A DNA stretch of 64,000 nucleotides from Verrucomicrobiota bacterium (GTDB taxonomy: Bacteria > Verrucomicrobiota > Verrucomicrobiia > Limisphaerales > UBA9464): the NCBI GenBank assembly GCA_947454705.1, contig CANGKZ010000008.1:24162-88161 (forward strand). The letters run 5' to 3'. Positions 18,184 through 61,781 of the stretch are shown in pieces (position 1 is the first letter of the stretch; every line of letters begins with the position of its first letter). Position numbers and translations under genes: made by a program. The notes under the pieces are model-generated. The model saw only the letters and a list, made by a program, of their open reading frames with translations. It ran no database searches and had not been told where the DNA came from.

Positions 18184-18259
18184 TGGTGGAGCCGACAGGA
18201 TTCGAACCTGCGACCCTCACAATGCCATTGTGATGCTCTACCAACTGAGCTACGACCCC
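18184..18259 (-). tRNA. tRNA-Ala (anticodon GGC)
   Basis: The reverse complement is GGGGTCGTAGCTCAGTTGGTAGAGCATCACAATGGCATTGTGAGGGTCGCAGGTTCGAATCCTGTCGGCTCCACCA. It folds as a cloverleaf with a G3:U70 pair, anticodon loop AUGGCAU, a GGTTCGAATCC T-arm and an encoded CCA. Confidence 0.9.
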
Positions 18260-51720: not shown

Positions 51721-53136
51721 TCACTCCGATCGGCGAAAGCGCACCGCGAGCAGGCGTGCTCTTTTCTTCCCGGGCTCGGGTCTTAGTTTCGACGCAGGTT
51801 GCACCTTGAAGGCTTCGCCCGGCGGGAATCCCTCGACCCACGCCACGATGCCATCCTTCGTTTCCGCCAGCCACAGACGTCGCCGCTGGGCTGCGGGGAT
51901 TTTTCGGTTCACGAAGAGATTCTGGAGCCGCGACGCCCGATCCATGCCGAGCTGCTGAAACCGGTCCCCGGACCTCCAGTGACGCAGTCGAAGCGAATCT
52001 CCGATCGAATCCAGATCCAAGAATTCCTCTCCGGGACGCCGGACTGGTGGCCGCGTTTTGCCAGGAATCATTCTCCACTCGAACACTCCGTCGTCGGTGG
52101 CAACCACACCAGAGGTCCCGGTCAGCGTTACCAGAATTGATTCATCCCCGCCGGATGCGGATTCGGAGCCGTTCGTGGCAGGTGCCACCGGTTCCAGCGC
52201 TCCGCTGAGACAGCGCCGAAATCCGCTGCCCGGAGCGGTGGAGACCGTGGAAGTCCGGCTTCGCAGCTTCTCCACCAAATCAAACCCGCCTGCATGACCG
52301 AGCTCCCACAGTTCGAGTCGGATCACGGCACGCTGCACCGCCACGTGAAGCTTCTCAAAGGATCGCCGGCGACGCGCCGAGATCCACGCCCGAGCCGTAT
52401 CCTCCACGAACGCGGCTTCCTCGGAAACCACGTCTGCCGTTCGCCCGAGTACCTCGCGAATGCCTGCCTGATACTCGGACTCCAGCAGGGGCAGCAGCTG
52501 GTGACGGATCCGATTTCGCAGGATCGTCGGATCCTGATTGGAGGCGTCTTCGCGGAAGTGCCAGCTGCGTTCCCGGGCGATGGATTCGAGCTCGCGCTTG
52601 CTGAAATCGAGCAGGGGACGGAGCAGGGGAATCCTGGGATCGGCGGGCGAGGGGGATTCGCGTTTCATGCCGCCCAGCCCCGATCCGCCAGCGCCGCGGA
52701 GGAGCCGAATAAGCACCAACTCCGCCTGGTCATCGGCATGGTGCGCGAGGGCCACGGCATCGGCACCCCATTCCTGGGCGGTTCGCGCGAGAAAGGCATG
52801 ACGAAGCCGCCGGGCCTTCATTTCCAGGGATTCGCGGGAGGCGGTTCTTCCGGAGGGTGAATCCAAGTGCGCCGAACCCGTAAACGCCGCTAGACCCAGC
52901 TCGGCGGCCAGAGCTGAAACAAACGCCTGGTCGGCATCGGAGTCGGCTCCGCGGAGGTGGTGATTGAAATGGGCAACGGCGAGGTCCAAACCAAGCGCCG
53001 ACCTCAGCTCCCAGAGGCTTCGAAGCAGCACCACGGAATCCATCCCGCCGGAAACCGCGAGCAGCACGCGACGATGCGAGGACCCGCCCCAATGGCGTTT
53101 CCAGGATTCGAACACCCGCTGCGAGATTGCGTCCAC
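51721..53136 (-). CDS. tilS: tRNA(Ile)-lysidine synthetase
   Basis: The PP-loop VLLAVSGGMDSVVLL identifies the family. The start is proposed at GTG 53136 (VDAISQRVFESWKRHW...). The longer track ORF would run across the divergent lptD-like start, so the start is uncertain. Confidence 0.8.
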   Translation of the reverse strand: MDAISQRVFESWKRHWGGSSHRRVLLAVSGGMDSVVLLRSLWELRSALGLDLAVAHFNHHLRGADSDADQAFVSALAAELGLAAFTGSAHLDSPSGRTASRESLEMKARRLRHAFLARTAQEWGADAVALAHHADDQAELVLIRLLRGAGGSGLGGMKRESPSPADPRIPLLRPLLDFSKRELESIARERSWHFREDASNQDPTILRNRIRHQLLPLLESEYQAGIREVLGRTADVVSEEAAFVEDTARAWISARRRRSFEKLHVAVQRAVIRLELWELGHAGGFDLVEKLRSRTSTVSTAPGSGFRRCLSGALEPVAPATNGSESASGGDESILVTLTGTSGVVATDDGVFEWRMIPGKTRPPVRRPGEEFLDLDSIGDSLRLRHWRSGDRFQQLGMDRASRLQNLFVNRKIPAAQRRRLWLAETKDGIVAWVEGFPPGEAFKVQPASKLRPEPGKKRARLLAVRFRRSE

Positions 53137-53257
53137 CGGACCGAAGCCTAGCCCTAAACAGCACCGGGCTCCATGCCGGAAGCGGCGGCCGGGATCGAAT
53201 GCACTGGAACTTGGGCTTGGCCGACGGTCGCCGGGTTGGATAGCGTGGACGCGTTCG

Positions 53258-55459
53258 ATGAAGTTTACCCCGCTTGGTCTCGCCATCCTGGCCGCAGCCG
53301 CCGTGCTCGCCCGGGAAACCCCAGCCACCCCGGATCCCGAGCTGATCGTCCGGTCGTCCGGCAAGGGCAGTTCCTTTGAGTTCGACGGCGTCCACGCGGT
53401 GGCCAACGACGGCGTGATCGTCGAGTACGGATCCAGCACCGTCACCGCGCGCAAGATCACGCTCGATCGCGACCATCAGACGGTGTTTGCCGAGGGCGAC
53501 GTCCTGATTCAATTCCCGGACAAACAGGGCCGGATGCAGCTTTGGCGCGGCGAAGCGGTCTATTTCAATTACGAGACCAAGGCTCTTTCCGCCGACGATT
53601 TCCGCGTCGGACAGCCCCCGTTTTTCGCCAAGGGCAAGCAGCTGAAGGCCGGTAAGAATCGCGCCCAGCAGGTGGCGGAAGGCGCAGTGATTACCACGGA
53701 CGATCTCGCCGAACCCGGATATCACATTCGCGCCAAGCGACTGGTGTTCATTCCCGGGAAGATCATGACGGCCGAAGAGGCCACCTTCTACGTGGGCAAG
53801 ACGCCGGTGATGTATTTCCCCACTTACACGCGGAGCCTGGAGCGTCATCCGAACTTTTGGACCCTCACCCCCGGGTATCGCAGCCTGTACGGTCCGTTCG
53901 CGCTGACCGGGTATCACTATTTTTGGAACACCAATGTTGAAACGGTCCTGAACCTCGACTGGCGCCAGAAGCGCGGAATCGGCGTCGGACCGGAGATCAA
54001 CTACGATCTCGGCCAGGCCGGGAAGGGGACTGCGGAGTTTTACTACACCCGCGACGATGCGCCCGGATTGAACGGAGCGGGACTGCCCCTGCCCTCGAAT
54101 CGGCACCGCACCACCTTCACCCACGAGATGGAGCCCTGGGACGGGTTCAATGCAAAGGCCGTGGTGCGCGAGCAGGGCGATCCGCTGGTGGTGCACGACT
54201 TCTTCGAGAACGAGTTTCGCCGCGACACCCAGCCCAAGTCCTTCTTCGAGGCCAGCCAGTTCTGGCGCAACTTCAGCCTCGATGTGATGGCGCAGCCGCA
54301 GATCAACGACTTCTTCCGCACGGTGGAGCGTCTGCCCGACCTCAAGGTCACCGGGCTCCGCCAGCAGGTCTGGGACACGCCGGTGTATTACGAGACGGAA
54401 AGTTCCGTGGCGTATCTGCGGTATCGCGACGGTCTTCTCGGCAGCGGAGTCTCGACCAATTTCTCCGCGATGCGTACCGATACGTATCATCAGTTCGTGC
54501 TCCCGCAGACTTACTTCGGCTGGTTGAATTTCACGCCGAGGGCAGGGGGACGTTATACCTATTACGGGGATCCCGATGGACTTCCGGTTCCGGGCGGCGC
54601 GCGGGATCGCTGGGTGTTCAACACCGGCGCTGAACTCAGCTTCAAGGCATCGCGCGTGTGGCAAGGGATCCGCAATGAGACCCTCGATGTCACCGGGGTC
54701 CGCCACATCGTGGAGCCCTCGATCAACTACGTGTACGTGCCGCGCCCGGATCGCCAGCCCTACGAACTGCCGCAGTTCGACCAGGAGCTGCCGTCACACC
54801 GCCTGTTGCCGCTCGATTTCCCGGATTATAATTCGATCGATTCGGTGGACAGTCAGAACACGCTTCGGTTGGGTCTCCGCAACAAGGTTCAGACCAAGCG
54901 TACCGAGGGCGTGGAAAACGTCCTTAACTGGGCGCTGTACACCGACTGGCGTATGCGCCCGCGCACGGGACAGACCACGTTCCCGGATTTGTATTCCGAC
55001 CTCGATTTCAGCCCGCGCAGCTGGGCGGTGTTCAACTCGCAGCTTCGCTACGACATCAACGGCCGCGACTGGCGCGAATCGAATCATCGGCTGACCCTGC
55101 TCCCGAACGGCGACTGGAACTGGACCCTGGGTCACCGTTACTTGAAAGATGATCCAACTCCCGGAGGTTACGGACCGGGCAATAATCTGATTTCCAGCAG
55201 TCTTTATTATAAGATCAACGAGGACTGGGGATTCCGGTTCAGCCATTATTTCGAGGCCCGCGACGGCGTGCTTGAAGAGCAGTACTATACGCTGTATCGC
55301 GATCTAAGAAGCTGGACCGCGGCACTGACCGTGCGGCTTCGCGACAACCGTCAATCGACCGCCGACTGGGCGATTGTGTTGACGCTGCAGTTGAAGGCAT
55401 TCCCGCGGTTCGGTCTCGGCAAGGACACCGACCGCGCCGACTGGCTCCTCGGTCGCTAG
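53258..55459 (+). CDS. lptD: LPS-assembly outer-membrane protein LptD-like (OstA)
   Basis: ATG at 53258 gives the signal peptide MKFTPLGLAILAAAAVLA. An OstA-like N-domain follows (VTARKITLDRDHQTVFAEGDVLIQF). The C-terminal region is large and beta-rich, with an FYVGKTPVMYFPTY-type motif. Confidence 0.7.
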   Translation: MKFTPLGLAILAAAAVLARETPATPDPELIVRSSGKGSSFEFDGVHAVANDGVIVEYGSSTVTARKITLDRDHQTVFAEGDVLIQFPDKQGRMQLWRGEAVYFNYETKALSADDFRVGQPPFFAKGKQLKAGKNRAQQVAEGAVITTDDLAEPGYHIRAKRLVFIPGKIMTAEEATFYVGKTPVMYFPTYTRSLERHPNFWTLTPGYRSLYGPFALTGYHYFWNTNVETVLNLDWRQKRGIGVGPEINYDLGQAGKGTAEFYYTRDDAPGLNGAGLPLPSNRHRTTFTHEMEPWDGFNAKAVVREQGDPLVVHDFFENEFRRDTQPKSFFEASQFWRNFSLDVMAQPQINDFFRTVERLPDLKVTGLRQQVWDTPVYYETESSVAYLRYRDGLLGSGVSTNFSAMRTDTYHQFVLPQTYFGWLNFTPRAGGRYTYYGDPDGLPVPGGARDRWVFNTGAELSFKASRVWQGIRNETLDVTGVRHIVEPSINYVYVPRPDRQPYELPQFDQELPSHRLLPLDFPDYNSIDSVDSQNTLRLGLRNKVQTKRTEGVENVLNWALYTDWRMRPRTGQTTFPDLYSDLDFSPRSWAVFNSQLRYDINGRDWRESNHRLTLLPNGDWNWTLGHRYLKDDPTPGGYGPGNNLISSSLYYKINEDWGFRFSHYFEARDGVLEEQYYTLYRDLRSWTAALTVRLRDNRQSTADWAIVLTLQLKAFPRFGLGKDTDRADWLLGR

Positions 55460-56108
55460 GTTCGCCGCCGCGTTCCCCATCCTCTCTCGAGGCCTATACT
55501 GCCGTTTCCAAGTTCCAAGGCTGCTGGAACGCGAAGCGGTCGGTCGGATTCCCGCCGATTCCATGCTTGAGGTGCGCTTCACCGAGGTGAACCCGGCGGG
55601 TCAGATTCCGCCGCTCTCCCTGGGTTAGGTTCAGTTCATTTCCGAATCTCCGCCAGCCCGACTGGAACTCGAATACCGTCTGAACTTGGCATCTGGCGCA
55701 GGCACCAGCGCCACCACGGACTCGTTTCAAAAGGTGATCCTCACAAGTGCTGGCCTTTATTCCTCGGCGGTTCGCGCATCCTCAGATCCACTCGAAATTG
55801 AGCTGCAGTTGCTCAGGAACTGGGTGAAAACCGTTCGATCGTAGGAAAGGTTGTTCCCGCGCGACGCATCTTCAGAATCGGCAGCGCAACCAGCGCCTAA
55901 GTCCGAACACGTCCGGCGTGGCGAAGTTCGATGTCTCGCCCGGCTTTCCCTGTTTGTTTCCCACAAATCGCGGGGGATTTCTCCAAATCACTCCATCTTC
56001 TTGGACCCTTTCGTGCGCTGCGGAGGCTTGGTTCTCAGGTCGTTCAACCCATCGCGATTGGGCGCGGGGTCTCACCAAAGCGCGATTCTTTGAGGAGTGT
56101 ACCCCTCC

Positions 56109-56388
56109 CGCACGACCTGTGCGCTGAGTCGGAGTCCGCACAAACCAGCAAGAATAGACTGTGCGCAGACCACCCGCCTCTTGGGTGTGCACAAAGGGGT
56201 GTGCGGTATCTGTGCGCTCGCTTCTGATGTGTGCGGTGTTCGGGCTTCAAAATGTCCCGAATCGTTCGATAATTTGAGGATTTGAGTTGGGTTTAGATCT
56301 GCATTTCCCCCTGTGCGTACGGAGAGGATGGGCCTCGATTTCTGGGGTGTGCGAATTCTAGTGTGCGTATTATTTCATCAAGCGCACA
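56109..56388. promoter_or_regulatory. Array of TGTGCG/CGCACA hexamer repeats (candidate protein-binding array)
   Basis: Manual count. Exact TGTGCG starts at 56118, 56160, 56200, 56211, 56230, 56312, 56348 and 56362. Exact CGCACA starts at 56137 and 56383. TGTGCA occurs at 56186 and CGCAC at 56109. Weaker GTGCG copies occur at 56013, 56447 and 56613. Confidence 0.7.
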
Positions 56389-56640
56389 TCGGATAACATC
56401 CGATCTTATATAGGATCATAGAAACCTATTAAATTATTGGAATGGCGTGCGGCTTGGTCACAGTTGCAACGAATTTGGCACTGATCTTTGAGGTTCATTC
56501 CACGGCTAGTTTCCAAGACTCCAGGCGGGAAGTCCTAGTCTGATTTCAGCAGGCAATGATTTGACTGCACAAAAGAGGTTGGAGGCCGTTTTGAATCTTC
56601 GAGTTCACCTTGGTGCGAATCCCAAAACACAAAGACTCCT

Positions 56641-56808
56641 ATGATTCTCCAATTCCTGAACGCGAATTGTCCACAAGGTGTGGTTCGGTCCCTGATGACG
56701 ATGGTGGTGGTCTTGGAGGCAAGCATTGTGGTGGACGGCCGACTCGTGCTGGAGCTCCCGGCTGCTTCGAGCGCGGGAAACCGCTTCTTCCGGGTGATGG
56801 AGAAATAA
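56641..56808 (+). CDS. Possible small ORF (55 aa) ending ...GNRFFRVMEK
   Basis: Hand-translated as MILQFLNANCPQGVVRSLMTMVVVLEASIVVDGRLVLELPAASSAGNRFFRVMEK. It is below the track's length cut-off. No clear RBS was seen. It ends 46 nt before the giant gene. Confidence 0.25.
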   Translation: MILQFLNANCPQGVVRSLMTMVVVLEASIVVDGRLVLELPAASSAGNRFFRVMEK

Positions 56809-56854
56809 CTCAGCACCGCAATCACTCCTCAAATTGACCCCTTTTTCTCTTCTC

Positions 56855-59800
56855 ATGAAAACACTCCTGGATTCACGCCCACTGCTTCGCGGGCTGCGTG
56901 CGCGCCTCGGATTCCTCGCCGGATTGGTTGCTGCGTTGTTTCTTACGCTCGATGTGCGCGCCGTGGACCGCATCGGCTTCGGGCCGGATGCAAATGTGCA
57001 GTCAGCCGCGTTTGGGGCTGATGGAACGCTCTACTTCGGAGGACAGTTTACTAAGTTTGGACTTCAAACGGGTTCAGCGTTTCAAGTGGATCTTGGTACC
57101 GGGGGGATCGATCGGAGCTTTCCACCGATCAATGGGGTCGTGAGGGCGATCTGCCCGGACGGACAGGGAGGTTGGTACATCGGAGGGGCGTTCACGAGTG
57201 TGGGTGGCGTATTGCGAACCAACCTCGCGCACATCGACAGCACGGGGGCTGTGACCGCCTGGCAACCGAGGTCGCCCATTGACGACAGAGTGGATGGCAT
57301 CACCCTGGGTGGAAACCTCATCTACTTCTGGGGAGCAGTCTCAAAAGTCAATGGAGTCGCGCTCAGATTCGTGGCTGCGGTGGGAACCGATGGCGAATTG
57401 ACCTCGTGGCGTCCGCTTCTCTCCGGCGGAGGCGTCAACACAGTCGCCGTTTCCGGGAGTACGGTTTATGTCGGCGGATCGTCTCTTATACTCAGTGGAA
57501 GTGGAGCGAGTCCGCGCCATTTCATGGCATTCGGAACGGACGGGACGTTGCTGCCGTGGGATCCGAATCCTAGTGACGAAGTCAACGCGATCCAAATTGT
57601 CGGAAGTTCAATCTATTTTGGAGGAGCATTCGGTTTTATCGGAGGCCAATCCCGACCTTTTATCGCTGAACTCGGATTGGACGGAGTAGCAAAGAATTGG
57701 CCCTCCAAAAGACCGACTGCTCGTGTGAGGGCGATCAGTGTGGACGCGGACAATGTTTACGTGGTGGGCGATTTTGCCGCCTTTTCGGGTGGCGGCGGAA
57801 CTCGAAACAAAGCAGCGGCGATATCTCGGACCACGGGCCTCCCGACCTCCTTCGATCCTTTTGCGGCCACCGCAGGAACCTTGGAGGTGCGTTCGGTTCT
57901 CGCCACCAACAACCTGGTCTATTTGCCCGGCTTCTTCCAAAGCGTCAGTGGCGTTGCTCAAAATCACATGGCCGTGGTTGCGCCGGATGGTCAGCTCCAG
58001 AGTCTGGCTCCCGATCCCAGTTTTGGCCTTTGGGCGGTGGGGATTTGGGGTTCGAAGATGGTGGCAGGAGGGGATTGCAGGGTTTGCGGGGGCGTTGCGC
58101 GTTCCGGTCTGGCAGCGATCGGGCCCGACGGTGTCCTGACGAGCTGGGCACCGACCCTAACACCGGCTGGATCTTATCAAGTGTTCTCGATAGCGACTTC
58201 CGGCTCCTCCGTCTATTTTGCGGGAAGTTTCAACAGCGTCAATGGGACTCCCCGAACCGGGCTCGCTGCGGTGGATCAAGGAGGCACCCTTACTTCGTGG
58301 AATCCGACGCTCGGATACGTTCCGAGTAACATGACATTGAAGCTGTATAACAATGCAATTTATCTGGGAGGTGGCTTTACTCAGGTCAATGGAGTCGGGC
58401 GCTCCGGCCTGGCTGCGGTGGATATGTCTGGAAGTCTGCTTCCGTGGAATCCGGGATGCAGCGGAGTTCCCCTGGCGATGGAAGCGACGAATGGGGTGGT
58501 CTATATCGCTGGAAATATCGACAGCGTCGGAGGGCTGACCCGAAACGGTCTCGCAGCCGTTGATACCGATGGAAATGTCACTTCCTGGAACCCGAATCCC
58601 GGTAGCGGGACAATCCGATCGATTGTTCCGGTTGGAAACACCATCTATTTGGGAGGATCGTTTACCAGCATCGCGGGGGGGGCGCGGAAAGGATTCGCGG
58701 GAGTGGGCACGGACGGAACGCTAAGTCCAATCAATTTGAACCTGAATGCTTCAACGGTCTTTGGCGTTGGCGTGTTTGAGGATCGGTTGTACGTGGCGTC
58801 AACCATCGGTGCCTACAGTGGAAACCCAGCAGGGAGCGTCACCTGTGTGGGGCAGGACGGCACGGTGTTTGGTTGGAATGCGGATCCCGGAATCGGTGTC
58901 CAAGGCGTCTTTGGGACCGCGACCAACCTCCTGATTTATGGCAATTTTTCCAGCGCCCGCTCGCAGTTGATTGCGGGGCAGTCGGGAATGTATCTGGCCT
59001 ATTTCAATCCGGTGGATACGACGCTGCCCACTGTCACCAGTGTGACCAGCAGTTCGACTGCGGGGAGCTACGATGTCGGGTCGGTGATCCCCATTCAGGT
59101 GGTCTTCTCTGATCCAGTCACCGTGACGGGGACTCCCACACTCACCCTGCAAAATGGGGGCGCGGGCCGGGTGGTGAATTACAGCAGCGGTTCCGGAACG
59201 ACCACCTTGACCTTCAATTACACCGTCCAGGCCGGCGATACGAGTGCCGATCTGGACTACCTCAGCAGTTCAGCCCTGAGTCTAAATGGAGGAACCATTG
59301 TTGAAACCTCTTCCGCAAATACGGCGGTGTTGACGCTGCCGAATCCGGGTGCGGCCGGCTCGCTGGGTGCGAATCAGGGGATTCAGATCAATACCTCGGC
59401 GCCAACGGACATCAGCCTGAGCGCCACTGTGGTTGCGGAGAACTCGCCCTTGGGAACCACCATTGGATCCCTGAGCGCGATCGATGCGGATGCGGGCGAC
59501 ACATTAAGCTTCACTCTGGTGAGCGGCGCCGGGTCGGCTGACAACGCAGCCTTCTCAATCAGTGGATCCAGCCTTAAGACCGCCGCCGCGGTCGATTACG
59601 AGACCAAGAGCGCCTATGGCATTCGAATCCGTGTCACCGACTCCGTCGGTCATGTGTTCGAAAAAGTGTTCACCGTCAGTGTGACCGACATCAACGAGGC
59701 ACCCAGTTTCAGCGGTTACAGTCTTACCGTGAGTTCGGATGCTACCACGATCCTGCCGGTGGCCAAAATCCTCGGTCGCACCAGTGATCCAGAAAACACC

Positions 59801-60214
59801 GCACGAACCTTCTCACTATCCACCGGCACCTCGGCGCAGGGCGGGACGGTTCAACAAGTTGGCACGACACTTCGCTACACTCCGCCGGCCGGTTATTCGG
59901 GATCTGATTCGTTCGGAATTAATATCAGCGATGGAGTAAACTCCTTGCCGGGAACGATAAACATCACGGTGGGGACCCAGGGGGCAGGGAACGGGCTCGC
60001 TCTGATTTCCGTCACCACGGTCGGAAGCGATGTGGTGCTCAAATTCTCGGGGGCTGCAGGTGCCCGATACCAGATCCAACGTTCCGGGAACATCACTGCG
60101 CCGGCGACTTGGACGTCCCTCGCCACGGTGACCGCGGACTCCAGCGGGTTTGTCTCTTATACGGACGTCGCACCGCCCAGCCCCTCATTCTGGCGCACGC
60201 TGACCGCGCCGTAA
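56855..60214 (+). CDS. Giant secreted protein: about 14 beta-propeller-type blades, Ig-like adhesin domain, cadherin-like domains
   Basis: ATG at 56855 (MKTLLDSRPLLRGLRARLGFLAGLVAALFLTLDVRA). About 14 repeats of Y.GG.F..V.G..R..LAA.D..G.L..W.P were counted by eye. A cadherin signature is present (AENSPLGTTIGSLSAIDADAGDTLSF...VTDINEAP). Confidence 0.85.
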   Translation: MKTLLDSRPLLRGLRARLGFLAGLVAALFLTLDVRAVDRIGFGPDANVQSAAFGADGTLYFGGQFTKFGLQTGSAFQVDLGTGGIDRSFPPINGVVRAICPDGQGGWYIGGAFTSVGGVLRTNLAHIDSTGAVTAWQPRSPIDDRVDGITLGGNLIYFWGAVSKVNGVALRFVAAVGTDGELTSWRPLLSGGGVNTVAVSGSTVYVGGSSLILSGSGASPRHFMAFGTDGTLLPWDPNPSDEVNAIQIVGSSIYFGGAFGFIGGQSRPFIAELGLDGVAKNWPSKRPTARVRAISVDADNVYVVGDFAAFSGGGGTRNKAAAISRTTGLPTSFDPFAATAGTLEVRSVLATNNLVYLPGFFQSVSGVAQNHMAVVAPDGQLQSLAPDPSFGLWAVGIWGSKMVAGGDCRVCGGVARSGLAAIGPDGVLTSWAPTLTPAGSYQVFSIATSGSSVYFAGSFNSVNGTPRTGLAAVDQGGTLTSWNPTLGYVPSNMTLKLYNNAIYLGGGFTQVNGVGRSGLAAVDMSGSLLPWNPGCSGVPLAMEATNGVVYIAGNIDSVGGLTRNGLAAVDTDGNVTSWNPNPGSGTIRSIVPVGNTIYLGGSFTSIAGGARKGFAGVGTDGTLSPINLNLNASTVFGVGVFEDRLYVASTIGAYSGNPAGSVTCVGQDGTVFGWNADPGIGVQGVFGTATNLLIYGNFSSARSQLIAGQSGMYLAYFNPVDTTLPTVTSVTSSSTAGSYDVGSVIPIQVVFSDPVTVTGTPTLTLQNGGAGRVVNYSSGSGTTTLTFNYTVQAGDTSADLDYLSSSALSLNGGTIVETSSANTAVLTLPNPGAAGSLGANQGIQINTSAPTDISLSATVVAENSPLGTTIGSLSAIDADAGDTLSFTLVSGAGSADNAAFSISGSSLKTAAAVDYETKSAYGIRIRVTDSVGHVFEKVFTVSVTDINEAPSFSGYSLTVSSDATTILPVAKILGRTSDPENTARTFSLSTGTSAQGGTVQQVGTTLRYTPPAGYSGSDSFGINISDGVNSLPGTINITVGTQGAGNGLALISVTTVGSDVVLKFSGAAGARYQIQRSGNITAPATWTSLATVTADSSGFVSYTDVAPPSPSFWRTLTAP

Positions 60215-60261
60215 CAGAGCAGGGGATTCGTCGTCAACTTCATCACTCATTCCGAAAATCT

Positions 60262-60969
60262 ATGAAACGATTTCACCTCATCGCCCTGCCCCTTGCAGCC
60301 ATTCTCGCGGGTCCGGCGTCTGCCGCCGTTTTCATTGCCAGCGAAACGCTCAGTTCAAACAACGAAGTCGGAGATCCGCCTACCGCAGGATTGAGCCGGG
60401 TTCTGACCGTGACCACACCGGTCCAGTCGCTCGCGGACCTAACGGTCGTTTTAGATCTCGGCAGCGCTCCGGGAGACATCGCCTGGAGCGGCGATCTCTT
60501 CGTACAACTCACCAGTCCCCAGGGAACGTCGATCGTGCTGATCAACCGGCCGGGGCTCTCGCCGACCGATCCGGTCTCGGGCTACGGCGATGCTGGCTTT
60601 AGCGTTTCCATCTCCGAAGCGGCACCGCATGACATTCACCAATATCAAACCTTCGGCTACACCCTGAACGCGTCGCAACAATTGACCGGATTTTGGCAAC
60701 CGGATGGTCGCATTGATGCCACATCCTCGACCCGTTCCAATGGAATCAACCCCGTCTTTGGTGAGAACCCTAACGGGCAATGGACGCTGTTCGTCTCGGA
60801 CCTGGGATCCGGAAACACCGCGCGGTTAAACAGTTGGAGCATCACGGGTAGCGATGTTGCGGCGGTGCCGGAACCGGAGGAAACCGCGCTGGCGGCTGGT
60901 TTGGTGCTCGGCGCGGCGGCGATCTGGCTGCAGCAGCGAAAGCGCAAGGCGTCGTTGTCGCGGTGCTAG
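60262..60969 (+). CDS. PEP-CTERM protein with proprotein-convertase P-domain-like body
   Basis: ATG at 60262 with signal MKRFHLIALPLAAILAGPASA. The body carries WSGDLFVQLTSPQGTSIVLINRPG and NPNGQWTLFVSDLGSGNTARLNSWSITG, which look like a P-domain. The C-terminus is VPEPEETALAAGLVLGAAAIWLQQRKRKA. Confidence 0.8.
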   Translation: MKRFHLIALPLAAILAGPASAAVFIASETLSSNNEVGDPPTAGLSRVLTVTTPVQSLADLTVVLDLGSAPGDIAWSGDLFVQLTSPQGTSIVLINRPGLSPTDPVSGYGDAGFSVSISEAAPHDIHQYQTFGYTLNASQQLTGFWQPDGRIDATSSTRSNGINPVFGENPNGQWTLFVSDLGSGNTARLNSWSITGSDVAAVPEPEETALAAGLVLGAAAIWLQQRKRKASLSRC

Positions 60970-60983
60970 GCGACTGACTCTGA

Positions 60984-61025
60984 CACAGGGCAGGGGACTT
61001 TGCCGGGGAGGCGCCCTGCCCTGTG
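60984..61025 (+). other. 12-bp perfect stem hairpin just after the PEP-CTERM gene (possible terminator, no T-run)
   Basis: cacagggcaggg - 18 nt - ccctgccctgtg. Confidence 0.5.
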
Positions 61026-61113
61026 AATTGCGGGTGGAAGGTAGGACGGAGCGTGGTTGGTTGTGGGGCTGCGGAGAGCGCACCTTGCCCTGGATGAAGT
61101 TGAAGCTAGTTGT

Positions 61114-61174
61114 GCATCCGTACCCGGATTCCAAAGCGCCAGAGGCCTAGCGCACTCCATGACGCTGTCGCGAC
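61114..61174. repeat. Family C block (inverted copy of 8921..8969)
   Basis: The reverse complement gtcgcgacagcgtcatggagtgcgctaggcctctggcgctttgg matches 8921..8969 at roughly 42/47 positions by eye. Confidence 0.6.
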
Positions 61175-61262
61175 TTGGTTACCGGCGTGCTGAATCCACC
61201 GGGTCTCGGATTGATGTGGTTGGGCTACTGCCTTTGCGTCCTGATCTGGGCTGCAGCTGATA

Positions 61263-61494
61263 ATAGCCCCGGACTTGAGTCCGGGTCGGAGCCCTCAGCA
61301 CGGATCAAGTCCCGGAGGGACGGCAGGAGGAACCATCTGTCGTCCCTCCGGGAGTTTTGACGCCTACGCGTGATGAACCCAGGCCTGAAGGCCTGGGTTA
61401 TTCTCGTGATCAACTCGTTACCGACGATAGCCCCGGACTTGAGTCCGGGGTGGAGGCCTTGACACGGATCGAGTCCCGGAGGGACGACAGAAGG
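61263..61494 (+). repeat. Family E: two 68-nt direct repeats 164 nt apart, with embedded perfect hairpins
   Basis: Copies at 61263..61330 and 61427..61494 are about 59/68 identical by eye. Each begins atagCCCGGACTtgAGTCCGGG. A 13-bp stem hairpin lies at 61310..61353 and a 10-bp stem hairpin at 61376..61399. Confidence 0.75.
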
Positions 61495-61781
61495 TTCGTT
61501 CTCAACCGACTTCAGGGGATATGCGGCCGGTTTTTGCCTATTTCTGTATTGAATATAACATTTATTGTGCGTCTTTTTTGACCCTTGGGAAAGGAGGCCT
61601 TTGGGATCGGATGCTTTCGCAACAACGTGGGCGTCGTCTGATCGAGCCCGCGCCATGAAGTTCAGGCTGCGAACGAATGAGTCACTCGATCCGCATCCGG
61701 ACCCGAATTCAGATTCGAATCCGACGTTGGTCCCTGAGGATTGCTCTCCACCAACGTGCGCGAGTGATTCGCGCTTCCGAT

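What the first reader, a model, noticed from the sequence alone, without database searches (positions are those of the whole stretch)
56109..56388. Dense array of TGTGCG/CGCACA hexamers upstream of the giant surface-protein / PEP-CTERM gene pair
Seen in sequence (manual count): there are ten exact hexamers within 271 bp. Eight are TGTGCG, at 56118, 56160, 56200, 56211, 56230, 56312, 56348 and 56362. Two are CGCACA, at 56137 and 56383. There is also TGTGCA inside the palindrome GTGCAC at 56186, and CGCAC at 56109. Weaker GTGCG copies flank the array at 56013, 56447 and 56613.

Elsewhere in the 64 kb I noticed the hexamer only sporadically, roughly once per several kb. From base composition alone, less than one copy would be expected in 271 bp.

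The left sites alternate in orientation (CGCAC-GTGCG-CGCAC-GTGCG). The right sites are all forward. Extended variants recur in pairs: GTGTGCGGT x2, TGTGCGTA x2 and TGTGCGC x3.

Inference: the leading hypothesis is a multi-site binding array for a DNA-binding protein. This could be an upstream activating region for the downstream operon, a nucleoprotein switch, or iterons. A transcribed repeat RNA is an alternative. I know of no described element with this motif.
Basis: partly seen in the sequence, partly recalled or inferred. Interest (0 to 1): 0.75.

Follow-up and report, generated by a model that had tools for sequence, protein, structure and literature searches.

The report
Conserved TGTGCG binding-site array
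A 280-bp non-coding stretch upstream of a recently acquired surface-protein operon in an uncultured Verrucomicrobium holds eleven copies of the hexamer TGTGCG that stayed intact while the DNA between them changed freely, so it is most likely a multi-site docking platform for a still unidentified DNA-binding protein.

Summary
Ten exact TGTGCG/CGCACA copies plus one TGTGCA lie in 56118-56388, where 0.09 are expected (P~6e-18). No comparable cluster occurs in the rest of the window or in ~1 Mb of related loci.

The array sits in the 5' non-coding part of a ~6-kb lineage-specific insert. The insert carries a 1119-aa beta-propeller/cadherin protein and a P-domain PEP-CTERM protein, and lies between lptD and the chromosome's dif site, which I identify at 61548-61575.

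Five strain haplotypes (~93% identical) carry the array. Only 3 of 66 hexamer columns vary, against 50 of 215 spacer columns (P=2e-4), and spacing is preserved. This indicates selection on the hexamers themselves.

The best reading is a homotypic cluster of sites for a sequence-specific DNA-binding regulator of the downstream operon.

TGTGCG is the published half-site of DctD/KguR-type sigma-54 activators. However, no DctD-like dyads and no GG-N10-GC promoter are present.

The hexamer is also the inner core of the XerC arm of the nearby dif (chance ~0.007), but the flanks do not match that arm.

Iterons, an invertible switch and a structured RNA are unsupported or inconclusive. The binding protein is unknown. 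Interest is moderate.

The parts
56109..56114 (-). S0: partial site CGCACG. It is an exact CGCACA in haplotype L194.
56118..56123 (+). S1: TGTGCG, invariant in 5 haplotypes.
56137..56142 (-). S2: CGCACA, invariant. In 4 of 5 haplotypes it is part of an 11-bp inverted repeat with S5 (CCGCACACCCC / GGGGTGTGCGG).
56160..56165 (+). S3: TGTGCG, invariant.
56186..56193 (+). S4: TGTGCA within the palindrome TGTGCACA. This is the least constrained site. It is TGTGCG in the L190 group and TTTGCA in L196. In the L190 group it is shifted by 1 nt, with compensating indels that keep the S3-S5 distance at 40 bp.
56200..56205 (+). S5: TGTGCG, invariant. It lies 11 bp from S6.
56211..56216 (+). S6: TGTGCG, invariant.
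56230..56235 (+). S7: TGTGCG. It is TGTACG in the L190 group, the same haplotype in which S4 became consensus.
56236..56311 (.). Fast-evolving 76-bp gap between the two site clusters. Its sigma-70-like match (TTCAAA-16-GATAAT, 56246-56273) and its only GG-N10-GC match (56288) are both disrupted in some haplotypes.
56312..56317 (+). S8: TGTGCG, invariant.
56348..56353 (+). S9: TGTGCG, invariant.
56362..56367 (+). S10: TGTGCG, invariant. It forms TGTGCG-N15-CGCACA with S11.
56383..56388 (-). S11: CGCACA, invariant.
56365..56435 (.). AT-rich patch (about 37% G+C in a 61% G+C genome). It contains the small palindromes TCGGATAACATCCGA and GATCTTATATAGGATC.
56436..56506 (+). A 70-bp block that is almost invariant across haplotypes (2 variable columns). 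It contains the near-palindrome TTGCAACGAATTTGGCA and a TGGCAC hexamer. It is a candidate core promoter or operator. This is inferred, not shown.
56507..56854 (+). The remaining 5' region. The 55-codon ORF at 56641-56808 is truncated to 37 or 35 codons in other haplotypes. It is probably a relic of a C-terminal domain rather than a gene. The last ~150 bp are nearly invariant.
56855..60214 (+). Gene 1: a 1119-aa secreted protein with a signal peptide, DUF5122 beta-propeller repeats and cadherin/Big_9 domains. No ortholog was found outside this strain cluster.
60262..60969 (+). Gene 2: a 235-aa proprotein-convertase P-domain protein with a PEP-CTERM-like tail (VPEPEE..., a transmembrane helix, then RKRK).
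55505..61530 (.). Lineage-specific insert (approximate limits). In the closest relatives, lptD is followed within 45-260 bp by the dif element and then lepB. The insert has lower G+C and GC3. KOPS-like motifs inside it are unpolarised (2+ : 2-).
61548..61575 (-). Chromosomal dif site. Read on the - strand it is AAGACGCACAA-TAAATG-TTATATTCAAT (XerC arm, central region, XerD arm). The TGTGCG at 61566-61571 is the core of its XerC arm.

Best explanation
The array is a homotypic cluster of about eleven recognition sites (core TGTGCG) for one sequence-specific DNA-binding protein, encoded elsewhere in the genome. The sites form a distal cluster of 7-8 (56109-56235) and a proximal cluster of 4 (56312-56388). 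Both lie just upstream of an AT-rich patch and a highly conserved 70-bp block, in the control region of a recently acquired two-gene surface-protein operon.

The likely mechanism is that many copies of the protein load onto the array. The resulting nucleoprotein complex then sets transcription of the operon, either activating it or silencing it, from a promoter in or just after the conserved block.

Shown: the clustering, the non-coding location, selection on the hexamers, and preserved spacing.

Inferred: that the ligand is a protein acting on DNA, that the target is the downstream operon, and the sign of the regulation.
For: - Enrichment: 10 exact copies where 0.087 are expected, P~6e-18.
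- Non-coding location: there is no codon-position signal across 55650-56600. There is no Pfam or Rfam hit.
- Pairwise comparison of the window with L067: 24 substitutions fall in the 280-bp array (8.6%). This exceeds the rate at third codon positions of the flanking genes (4.5-5.1%). None of the 24 falls in the 66 hexamer positions (hypergeometric P=0.0011).
- Five haplotypes: 3 of 66 hexamer columns vary against 50 of 215 spacer columns (Fisher P=2e-4). For the ten exact sites it is 1 of 60 (P=1.2e-5).
- Positions immediately flanking the hexamers do vary, so the constrained unit is the 6-mer itself.
- Both orientations are conserved (S2, S11), which suits recognition of duplex DNA.
- Site-to-site distances are identical in all haplotypes. 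The single exception, S4, moved by 1 nt through paired indels that keep the S3-S5 distance.
- Site turnover within one haplotype: S7 was lost while S4 was improved to consensus. This is typical of binding-site clusters.
- Haft et al. report that PEP-CTERM genes typically have long upstream non-coding regions with regulator sites (PMC1569441).
- TGTGCG is a bona fide recognition half-site of bacterial helix-turn-helix regulators such as DctD and KguR (PMC11077940, PMC8716947).
Against: - No cognate regulator was identified. The window encodes only a TetR-family protein far away.
- No promoter could be assigned.
- The array lies 470-745 bp from the start codon, which is far for a classical operator.
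- There is no helical phasing among the sites (spacings 42, 26, 14, 11, 19, 82, 36, 14, 21).
- Homologous two-gene modules in other Verrucomicrobia lack any array. No second array was seen in 64 kb plus ~1 Mb of relatives. A regulon is therefore not demonstrated.
- All haplotypes are only ~6-7% diverged and share ancestry, so the selection test rests on a shallow tree.
Confidence: 0.5

Rival explanations
1. The array is specifically an upstream activating sequence for a DctD/KguR-like NtrC-family enhancer-binding protein. That protein would drive a sigma-54 promoter of the surface-protein operon.
For: - The hexamer is identical to the DctD half-site (R. meliloti 5'-TGTGCGgaaatCCGCACA-3') and to KguR sites.
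- Group I enhancer-binding proteins use multiple upstream sites far from the promoter (PMC11077940).
- PEP-CTERM genes of Proteobacteria are sigma-54/PrsR dependent and have long upstream regions.
- A perfect TGGCAC lies in the invariant block about 90 bp downstream of the array (56476).
Against: - No GG-N10-GC site exists on the + strand between the array and the start codon. The TGGCAC is followed by TTTGA, not TTGC.
- The only GG-N10-GC site (56288) is weak (7 of 12) and is destroyed in L194.
- No TGTGCG-N6-8-CGCACA dyad is present. The inverted pairs are N13 and N15, and most sites are direct repeats.
- No rpoN or Sigma54_activat gene lies in the window.
- Haft et al. found the sigma-54 motif only in Proteobacteria.
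Confidence: 0.1
2. The array is linked to Xer site-specific recombination. It would be a bank of XerC-arm core sequences on an island lying next to the chromosomal dif site. It would bind XerC (or another dif-binding protein) to promote, direct or restrain recombination of the island.
For: - The conserved 28-bp element at 61548-61575 is dif.
  - It is 21/28 identical to the predicted dif of Methylacidiphilum infernorum and 18/28 identical to E. coli dif.
  - Its arms are conserved and its central region is variable in 7 related genomes.
  - The best other match in the window is 16/28.
  - GGGNAGGG polarity flips there, from 39+:3- on the left to 5+:17- on the right (P=1.6e-8).
- Its XerC-arm core is CGCACA(A), the array's hexamer. 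The chance of this is about 0.007.
- The array and dif sit near opposite ends of a ~6-kb integrase-less insert.
- dif variants in relatives end in TGTGCA, as S4 does.
- Integrase-less elements that exploit Xer are known, namely IMEX elements and Acinetobacter dif modules (abstracts).
Against: - The array sites match only 6 of the 11 arm positions. The innermost A and the outer AAGA are not conserved at any site.
- No array site lies in a two-arm, 6-8-bp-spacer context, and no second dif-like site exists in the window.
- The 12 nt to the left of dif are homologous between insert-bearing and insert-free genomes. The insert is therefore beside dif, not in it.
- To my knowledge, no known Xer system uses arrays of half-site cores.
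Confidence: 0.12
3. The array acts at the RNA level. It would be part of a long 5' leader or a non-coding RNA in which repeated UGUGCG motifs pair with the two CGCACA copies, or bind an RNA-binding protein.
For: - Nine of eleven copies face the same way as the operon.
- The reverse copies can pair with forward ones (S2:S5 11 bp, S10:S11, S3:S4).
- The + strand folds somewhat better than shuffles (z=-1.9), while the - strand does not (z=-0.3).
- Two of the three substitutions in hexamers are G-U/A-U neutral.
Against: - There is no Rfam match.
- The covariation term is only -2.4 kcal/mol, with 2 compensatory pairs out of 124. The shuffle controls reach the observed values in 29-39 of 500 trials, which is within the tool's stated false-positive range.
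- No promoter upstream of the array was identified.
- The orientation bias is weak on its own (two-sided P~0.07, my calculation).
Confidence: 0.12
4. The array is a relic or working cis-site of a mobile element. Candidates are origin iterons, a partition centromere, or recombinase arm-type sites at the left end of the insert.
For: - In the short-form haplotypes the array starts only about 150 bp from the lptD stop, which is at the edge of the insert.
- An AT-rich patch adjoins it.
- Arrays of TGTGCG with variable spacers exist in mobile DNA. One is a gut-phage family with 5 copies at 11-bp period inside a lambda-O-like replication initiator gene. Others are CCGCACA arrays next to tyrosine recombinase genes (L115, L134).
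Against: - There is no rep, par, integrase or transposase gene in the insert.
- There are no terminal inverted repeats.
- The spacing is irregular, with no 11- or 22-bp period.
- Control scans with other hexamers gave 94 and 9 viral hits against 32 for TGTGCG. Such arrays are therefore generic and imply no homology.
- There is no similarity to any plasmid or phage record.
- Continued purifying selection in an element without its own machinery would need a host-encoded partner.
Confidence: 0.08
5. The array has no function. It would be a chance cluster or the residue of local duplications.
For: Some sites share slightly longer flanks. Examples are TCTKGGGTGTGCR-N8-GTGTGCG twice, 162 bp apart, and CTGTGCGC three times. 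This would fit old duplications.
Against: - The enrichment has P~6e-18.
- Substitutions avoid the hexamers (P=2e-4 to 1e-5) while the spacers evolve faster than synonymous sites.
Confidence: 0.03

Closest known systems
DctD upstream activating sequence at dctA (Rhizobium) and KguR/DctD sites in E. coli and Vibrio vulnificus
   Same: The recognition hexamer TGTGCG/CGCACA is identical. Multiple sites lie well upstream of the regulated gene. In V. vulnificus the targets are cell-surface (exopolysaccharide) loci (PMC11077940, PMC8716947).
   Different: Those sites are dyads (TGTGCG-N6-8-CGCACA), two per promoter, paired with a canonical sigma-54 -24/-12 promoter. Here eleven mostly direct copies occur at irregular spacing, there are no dyads, and there is no GG-N10-GC promoter.
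Homotypic arrays of short asymmetric sites for response regulators, such as NarL heptamers and Spo0A 0A boxes (my own knowledge, not tested here)
   Same: A 6-7-bp core. Many copies in both orientations at irregular spacing upstream of a promoter. Individual sites turn over while the cluster persists.
   Different: The motif and the phylum differ. Eleven sites in 280 bp is denser than typical examples. No regulator is known in Verrucomicrobia.
Origin iterons, for example lambda ori inside gene O, and the gut-phage family found here (L204 and relatives)
   Same: A short conserved core repeated with variable spacers. An AT-rich region lies nearby.
   Different: Phage iterons are strictly periodic (11 bp here) and lie in or next to the initiator gene. 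The window array is aperiodic, and no initiator gene is present.
Xer core sites, IMEX elements and dif modules
   Same: The hexamer is the core of the XerC arm of the genome's own dif. The array lies on an integrase-less insert directly beside dif.
   Different: There is no two-arm 28-bp architecture at any array site. The insert is not within dif and is not flanked by two dif-like sites.
[quoted passage not shown] 2006)
   Same: A long non-coding region upstream of a PEP-CTERM-associated operon, proposed to hold regulator sites.
   Different: The described motif (TTTACA-containing motif 1 plus a sigma-54 motif) is restricted to Proteobacteria and is not present here.

Membership tests
Homotypic transcription-factor binding-site cluster | A short motif statistically over-represented in a non-coding region upstream of a gene | tested here: met
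   10 copies where 0.087 are expected, P~6e-18. The region is non-coding.
Homotypic transcription-factor binding-site cluster | Motif positions under stronger constraint than the spacers | tested here: met
   3 of 66 hexamer columns vary against 50 of 215 spacer columns, P=2e-4. For the exact sites it is 1 of 60, P=1.2e-5.
Homotypic transcription-factor binding-site cluster | A cognate protein binds the sites and changes expression | not testable with these tools
   This needs EMSA, DAP-seq or reporter assays. No candidate regulator lies in the 64-kb window.
NtrC-family enhancer-binding-protein UAS with sigma-54 promoter (DctD/KguR type) | Half-site TGTGCG | tested here: met
   Identical to the published half-site.
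NtrC-family enhancer-binding-protein UAS with sigma-54 promoter (DctD/KguR type) | Half-sites arranged as dyads TGTGCG-N6-8-CGCACA | tested here: not met
   The only convergent pairs have N13 (S1/S2) and N15 (S10/S11). The remaining sites are direct repeats.
NtrC-family enhancer-binding-protein UAS with sigma-54 promoter (DctD/KguR type) | A -24 GG / -12 GC promoter (GG-N10-GC) downstream of the sites | tested here: not met
   No GG-N10-GC on the + strand in 56389-56860. The best partial match is TGGCACTGATCTTTGA.
NtrC-family enhancer-binding-protein UAS with sigma-54 promoter (DctD/KguR type) | rpoN and a cognate activator in the genome | not testable with these tools
   Only 64 kb of the genome is held, and neither gene is in the window.
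Plasmid/phage origin iterons | Direct repeats of about 17-22 bp (or a fixed helical period) next to an initiator gene | tested here: not met
   The core is 6 bp. Spacings are 11-82 bp and irregular. There is no rep gene in the insert.
Plasmid/phage origin iterons | An adjacent AT-rich unwinding region | tested here: met
   56350-56449 has 37% G+C against 61% for the genome. On its own this is not diagnostic.
Xer recombination core site / IMEX attachment site | Two 11-bp arms around a 6-8-bp central region | tested here: not met
   Met only by the dif at 61548-61575. No array site and no other place in the window scores above 14/20 against the local consensus.
Xer recombination core site / IMEX attachment site | The element is integrated within dif and flanked by two dif-like sites | tested here: not met
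   The 12 nt to the left of dif are shared with insert-free relatives, and there is no left-hand dif-like site.
Invertible promoter / phase-variation switch | Both orientations present in populations, with flanking inverted repeats and a recombinase | tested here: not met
   All 9 independent contigs that span the array, from 8 samples, show one orientation. There are no flanking inverted repeats and no recombinase gene.
Structured non-coding RNA | A match to a described family, or significant covariation | tested here: inconclusive
   There is no Rfam hit. The fold z-score is -1.9. There are 2 compensatory pairs out of 124, and shuffles reach the observed values in 29-39 of 500 trials.

The most novel reading that the evidence does not exclude
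The array is a bank of XerC-arm core sequences placed on an integrase-less island right beside the chromosome's dif site. It would recruit or titrate the host Xer recombinase (or another dif-binding factor) to control capture, retention or loss of the island. If so, it is a new way of exploiting the chromosome-dimer-resolution machinery, distinct from IMEX elements and dif modules.
Probability: 0.1. Interest if true: 0.8.

Novelty: new variant of a known kind. Interest (0 to 1): 0.5.

Why it matters
Almost nothing is known about transcriptional control in Verrucomicrobia, or about how their abundant PEP-CTERM and adhesin-like surface proteins are regulated. This array gives a concrete bait that carries evidence of selection: eleven conserved TGTGCG sites, with natural variants that gain or lose sites. 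It could be used to fish out the cognate protein and to test control of a strain-specific surface operon.

The work also locates the dif site and the KOPS polarity switch of this uncultured lineage. It shows a young island inserted beside dif whose upstream array shares its hexamer with the XerC arm. If that link is functional, it would reveal a new interplay between Xer recombination and island biology.

Tried and rejected
1. Replication origin (oriC) with DnaA-box-like sites. The GC-skew profile shows no origin-type switch at the array. The first three box positions are not conserved. The region is a lineage-specific insert.

2. Restriction-site or binding-site avoidance of TGTGCG genome-wide. 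The apparent depletion against dinucleotide shuffles disappears under an order-4 Markov model.

3. Orthologous upstream regions via lptD. None of the 64 loci carries the insert or any cluster.

4. Orthologs of the 1119-aa gene. None was found outside the 90% cluster. Progress came instead through the P-domain protein and cluster members.

5. Metagenome and viral pattern scans for other arrays. The hits were dominated by 11-bp tandem repeats, GT microsatellites and phage iterons. Control hexamers gave comparable numbers, so nothing can be inferred about relatives of this array.

6. KOPS-like role for TGTGCG. The strand skew seen in the window (14+:5-) is not reproduced in relatives.

7. A second dif-like site or a cryptic core site within the array. 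None was found. The 8/11 match to a XerD arm at 56406 is at chance level in AT-rich DNA.

8. Sigma-70 promoter in the S7-S8 gap. It is not conserved in the L190 group.

9. Transposon ends. There are no terminal inverted repeats.

10. Similarity to plasmids or phages. None was found.

11. GC skew across dif in short loci. This was uninformative. KOPS polarity was decisive instead.
Full report
**1. Observation**

- Eight TGTGCG lie on the + strand at 56118, 56160, 56200, 56211, 56230, 56312, 56348 and 56362.
- Two CGCACA lie at 56137 and 56383.
- TGTGCA sits inside the palindrome TGTGCACA at 56186, and CGCAC at 56109.

Only 20 further copies occur in the other ~63 kb. At that rate 0.087 copies are expected in 271 bp (P(>=10) ~ 6e-18). 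K-mer statistics single out CGCACA/TGTGCG, with no consistent longer word.

The apparent depletion elsewhere (30 found, 46 expected from dinucleotide shuffles) is explained by rare sub-words. An order-4 Markov model expects 17.3 and 20 are seen.

**2. Setting**

The organism is an uncultured member of the Verrucomicrobiota. All 64 lptD-linked loci come from such MAGs, several of them named Pedosphaera or Limisphaerales.

The array lies in a 1.4-kb gap between two genes.
- Upstream is an LptD-like gene (52964-55459).
- Downstream is a 1119-aa secreted protein with DUF5122 beta-propeller repeats and cadherin/Big_9 domains (56855-60214).
- After a 47-bp gap comes a 235-aa P-domain protein with a PEP-CTERM-like tail (60262-60969).

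The gap shows no codon-position signal across 55650-56600. It has no Rfam match, even at permissive thresholds.

The small ORF that gene callers place at 56641-56808 shrinks to 37 or 35 codons in other strains. It ends in ...RFFRV, like the C-terminal domains of local surface proteins. I regard it as a relic.

**3. The region is a young insert beside dif**

In the closest relatives (L012, 88% LptD identity; L003; L007), the lptD stop is followed within roughly 45-260 bp by a conserved AT-rich element. Then come lepB and a carbonic anhydrase gene. In the window these lie at 61.5-63.7 kb. About 6 kb (~55505-61530) is therefore lineage specific.
- Its G+C and GC3 are lower than in host genes.
- The 1119-aa gene has no ortholog among 5.8 billion proteins outside its own 90% cluster.

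The conserved element is the chromosomal dif site.
- Read on the minus strand, 61548-61575 is AAGACGCACAA-TAAATG-TTATATTCAAT.
- It matches 21 of 28 positions of the dif predicted for Methylacidiphilum infernorum. It matches 18 of 28 for Akkermansia and 18 of 28 for E. coli (Kono et al. 2011, PMC3025954 supplement).
- The next best match in the window scores 16.
- In seven related genomes the arms are conserved and the central hexamer varies.
- The FtsK-orienting motif GGGNAGGG points towards it from both sides. It is 39+:3- on the left and 5+:17- on the right (Fisher P=1.6e-8). AGCAGGG behaves the same way (32:5 against 0:8).
- Inside the insert the motif is unpolarised (2:2). This is further evidence that the insert is foreign DNA.

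**4. Comparative evidence on the array**

The P-domain protein has close relatives. Through these and through cluster members, I recovered ten further contigs from other metagenomes with the same lptD-array-operon layout. Seven of them, together with the window, give the eight sequences of alignment A2. These represent five distinct haplotypes, about 93% identical to the window.

Pairwise with L067:
- The array region carries 24 substitutions in 280 bp (8.6%).
- This exceeds third codon positions of the two downstream genes (4.5% and 5.1%).
- None of the 24 falls in the 66 hexamer positions (P=0.0011).

Across the five haplotypes:
- 3 of 66 hexamer columns vary against 50 of 215 spacer columns (Fisher one-sided P=2e-4).
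- For the ten exact sites it is 1 of 60 (P=1.2e-5).
- Bases directly flanking the hexamers vary freely.

The three changes within hexamers are informative.
- S4, the only non-consensus site, becomes TGTGCG in the L190 group and TTTGCA in L196.
- S7 becomes TGTACG in the same L190 group that improved S4.
- S0 becomes an exact CGCACA in L194.

Spacing is identical everywhere. The exception is a 1-nt deletion and a 1-nt insertion on either side of S4, which leave the S3-S5 distance at 40 bp.

Downstream features:
- A 70-bp block (56436-56506) follows the AT-rich patch and is almost invariant.
- The last ~150 bp before the start codon are almost invariant as well.

By contrast, the 76-bp gap between the two site clusters evolves fast.
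- Its sigma-70-like match is broken in one haplotype group.
- Its one GG-N10-GC match is broken in another haplotype.

**5. What it most likely is**

The evidence points to a set of recognition sites for a sequence-specific protein acting on duplex DNA.
- The clustering is extreme.
- The constraint is confined to a 6-bp core, in both orientations.
- The spacing is preserved.
- There is site turnover within a haplotype.

The location argues that it controls the downstream surface-protein operon. It lies upstream of an AT-rich patch and a conserved block, ahead of an operon of the PEP-CTERM class. Long regulatory upstream regions are known for that class (Haft et al. 2006). The ligand, the promoter and the sign of regulation are all inferred, not shown.

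**6. Comparison with known systems**

*(a) DctD/KguR-type enhancer-binding proteins.* The literature gives TGTGCG as their half-site. Two defining features fail, however.
- There are no TGTGCG-N6-8-CGCACA dyads.
- There is no GG-N10-GC promoter between the array and the gene. The conserved TGGCAC at 56476 is followed by TTTGA.

*(b) Iterons.*
- The pattern scans found many TGTGCG arrays in metagenomes and viral contigs.
- One is a gut-phage family with five copies at 11-bp period inside a lambda-O-like initiator gene.
- Others are CCGCACA arrays beside tyrosine recombinase genes.
- Control hexamers gave 94 and 9 viral hits against 32, so such arrays are generic.
- The window array differs from them. 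It is aperiodic and has no rep, par or int gene nearby.

*(c) Xer.* The array hexamer equals the inner core of the XerC arm of the adjacent dif (chance ~0.007). Set against this:
- The flanks of the array sites do not match the arm.
- No two-arm site exists in the array.
- The insert lies beside dif rather than within it.

I keep this as the most novel reading that is not excluded.

*(d) RNA.* The + strand folds slightly better than shuffles (z=-1.9). Covariation is within the false-positive range.

*(e) Inversion switch.* All 9 contigs that span the array (from 8 samples) have one orientation.

*(f) Module-linked feature.* The same two-gene module occurs in other Verrucomicrobia, in different genomic contexts, without any array. 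The array is therefore specific to this lineage's copy.

**7. Verdict**

- The 'binding array' interpretation is supported by evolutionary evidence.
- The more specific suggestions (iterons, switch) are not supported.
- It is a new variant of a known kind, a homotypic binding-site cluster or upstream regulatory region.
- An intriguing link to the neighbouring dif site remains unresolved.
- Interest is moderate (0.5).

Noticed in passing
window 61548-61575 (and L003:8050, L004:7867, L005:5834, L006:10563, L007:12546, L012:1551, L026:12340): This conserved 28-bp element between the convergent lptD and lepB genes is the chromosomal dif site. It is 21/28 identical to the predicted dif of Methylacidiphilum infernorum. 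Its arms are conserved and its central 6 bp are variable. KOPS-like GGGNAGGG and AGCAGGG motifs flip polarity exactly there (39+:3- on the left against 5+:17- on the right). The window therefore spans the replication terminus.
   Followed up: yes
window ~55505-61530: About 6 kb is absent from the closest relatives, where lptD is followed almost directly by dif and lepB. The segment has lower G+C and GC3, unpolarised KOPS motifs, no integrase and no terminal repeats. It is a young island beside dif.
   Followed up: yes
window 55505-56004; L194:1-118: The stretch between the lptD stop and the array is structurally unstable among strains. Six of the seven further contigs in A2 lack about 500 bp that are present in the window. 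L194 lacks a different 166 bp (55590-55755).
   Followed up: partly
window 56855-60214: Substitutions between the window and L067 in the 1119-aa surface-protein gene are almost equal at the three codon positions (39/34/50). This suggests relaxed or diversifying selection. The P-domain gene shows the usual excess at the third position (5/3/12).
   Followed up: partly
window 61263-61330 and 61427-61494: Two copies of a 68-nt REP-like element lie 164 bp apart just before dif. Each is built of GC-rich hairpins. L067 has only one copy, and the Logan contigs break here. Relatives carry other REP-like units at the same place.
   Followed up: partly
window 56436-56506: This 70-bp block is almost invariant across five haplotypes. 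It contains the near-palindrome TTGCAACGAATTTGGCA and overlapping imperfect sigma-54-like motifs (TGGCAC...TTTGA on the + strand, TGCCAA...TTGCA on the - strand). It may be a second operator or the core promoter.
   Followed up: partly
L069:6046-10684; L335-L337:4474-8717; gene tables: The pair 'large cadherin-domain secreted protein followed by a small P-domain PEP-CTERM protein' recurs as a two-gene module. It appears in unrelated genomic contexts in other Verrucomicrobia, with 360-835-bp upstream gaps.
   Followed up: partly
L201, L204, L207-L209, L212, L215, L217, L218, L220, L222, L224, L225, L227, L231 (also L083, L112, L150): A family of viral contigs (one copy is from a human-gut metagenome contig) carries five TGTGCG at an exact 11-bp period. 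The 5-nt spacers vary between contigs. The array lies inside a lambda-O-like / DnaD-like replication initiator gene (L204:5315-6382). These are presumably origin iterons.
   Followed up: partly
L115:1335-1398, L134:6268-6380, L137:4-67, L165:1888-1960, L100:3746-4700: These metagenome contigs carry arrays of CCGCACA/TGTGCGG with variable spacers. Pairs lie 11 bp apart and the pairs are about 29 bp apart. L100 has 27 copies. Several arrays lie next to tyrosine recombinase genes, and one lies next to an MmeI-type restriction-modification gene. L115 and L165 share homologous flanks.
   Followed up: partly
window and loci L003-L066 (genome-wide statistic): The palindromic hexamers CAGCTG, CTCGAG, GTCGAC, CCGCGG and CAATTG are strongly depleted relative to an order-4 Markov expectation (z as low as -26 over 1 Mb). 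This is the usual signature of restriction-site avoidance.
   Followed up: no
window 18187-18259 (-): This is the only Rfam hit at gathering threshold in the window, a tRNA gene.
   Followed up: no
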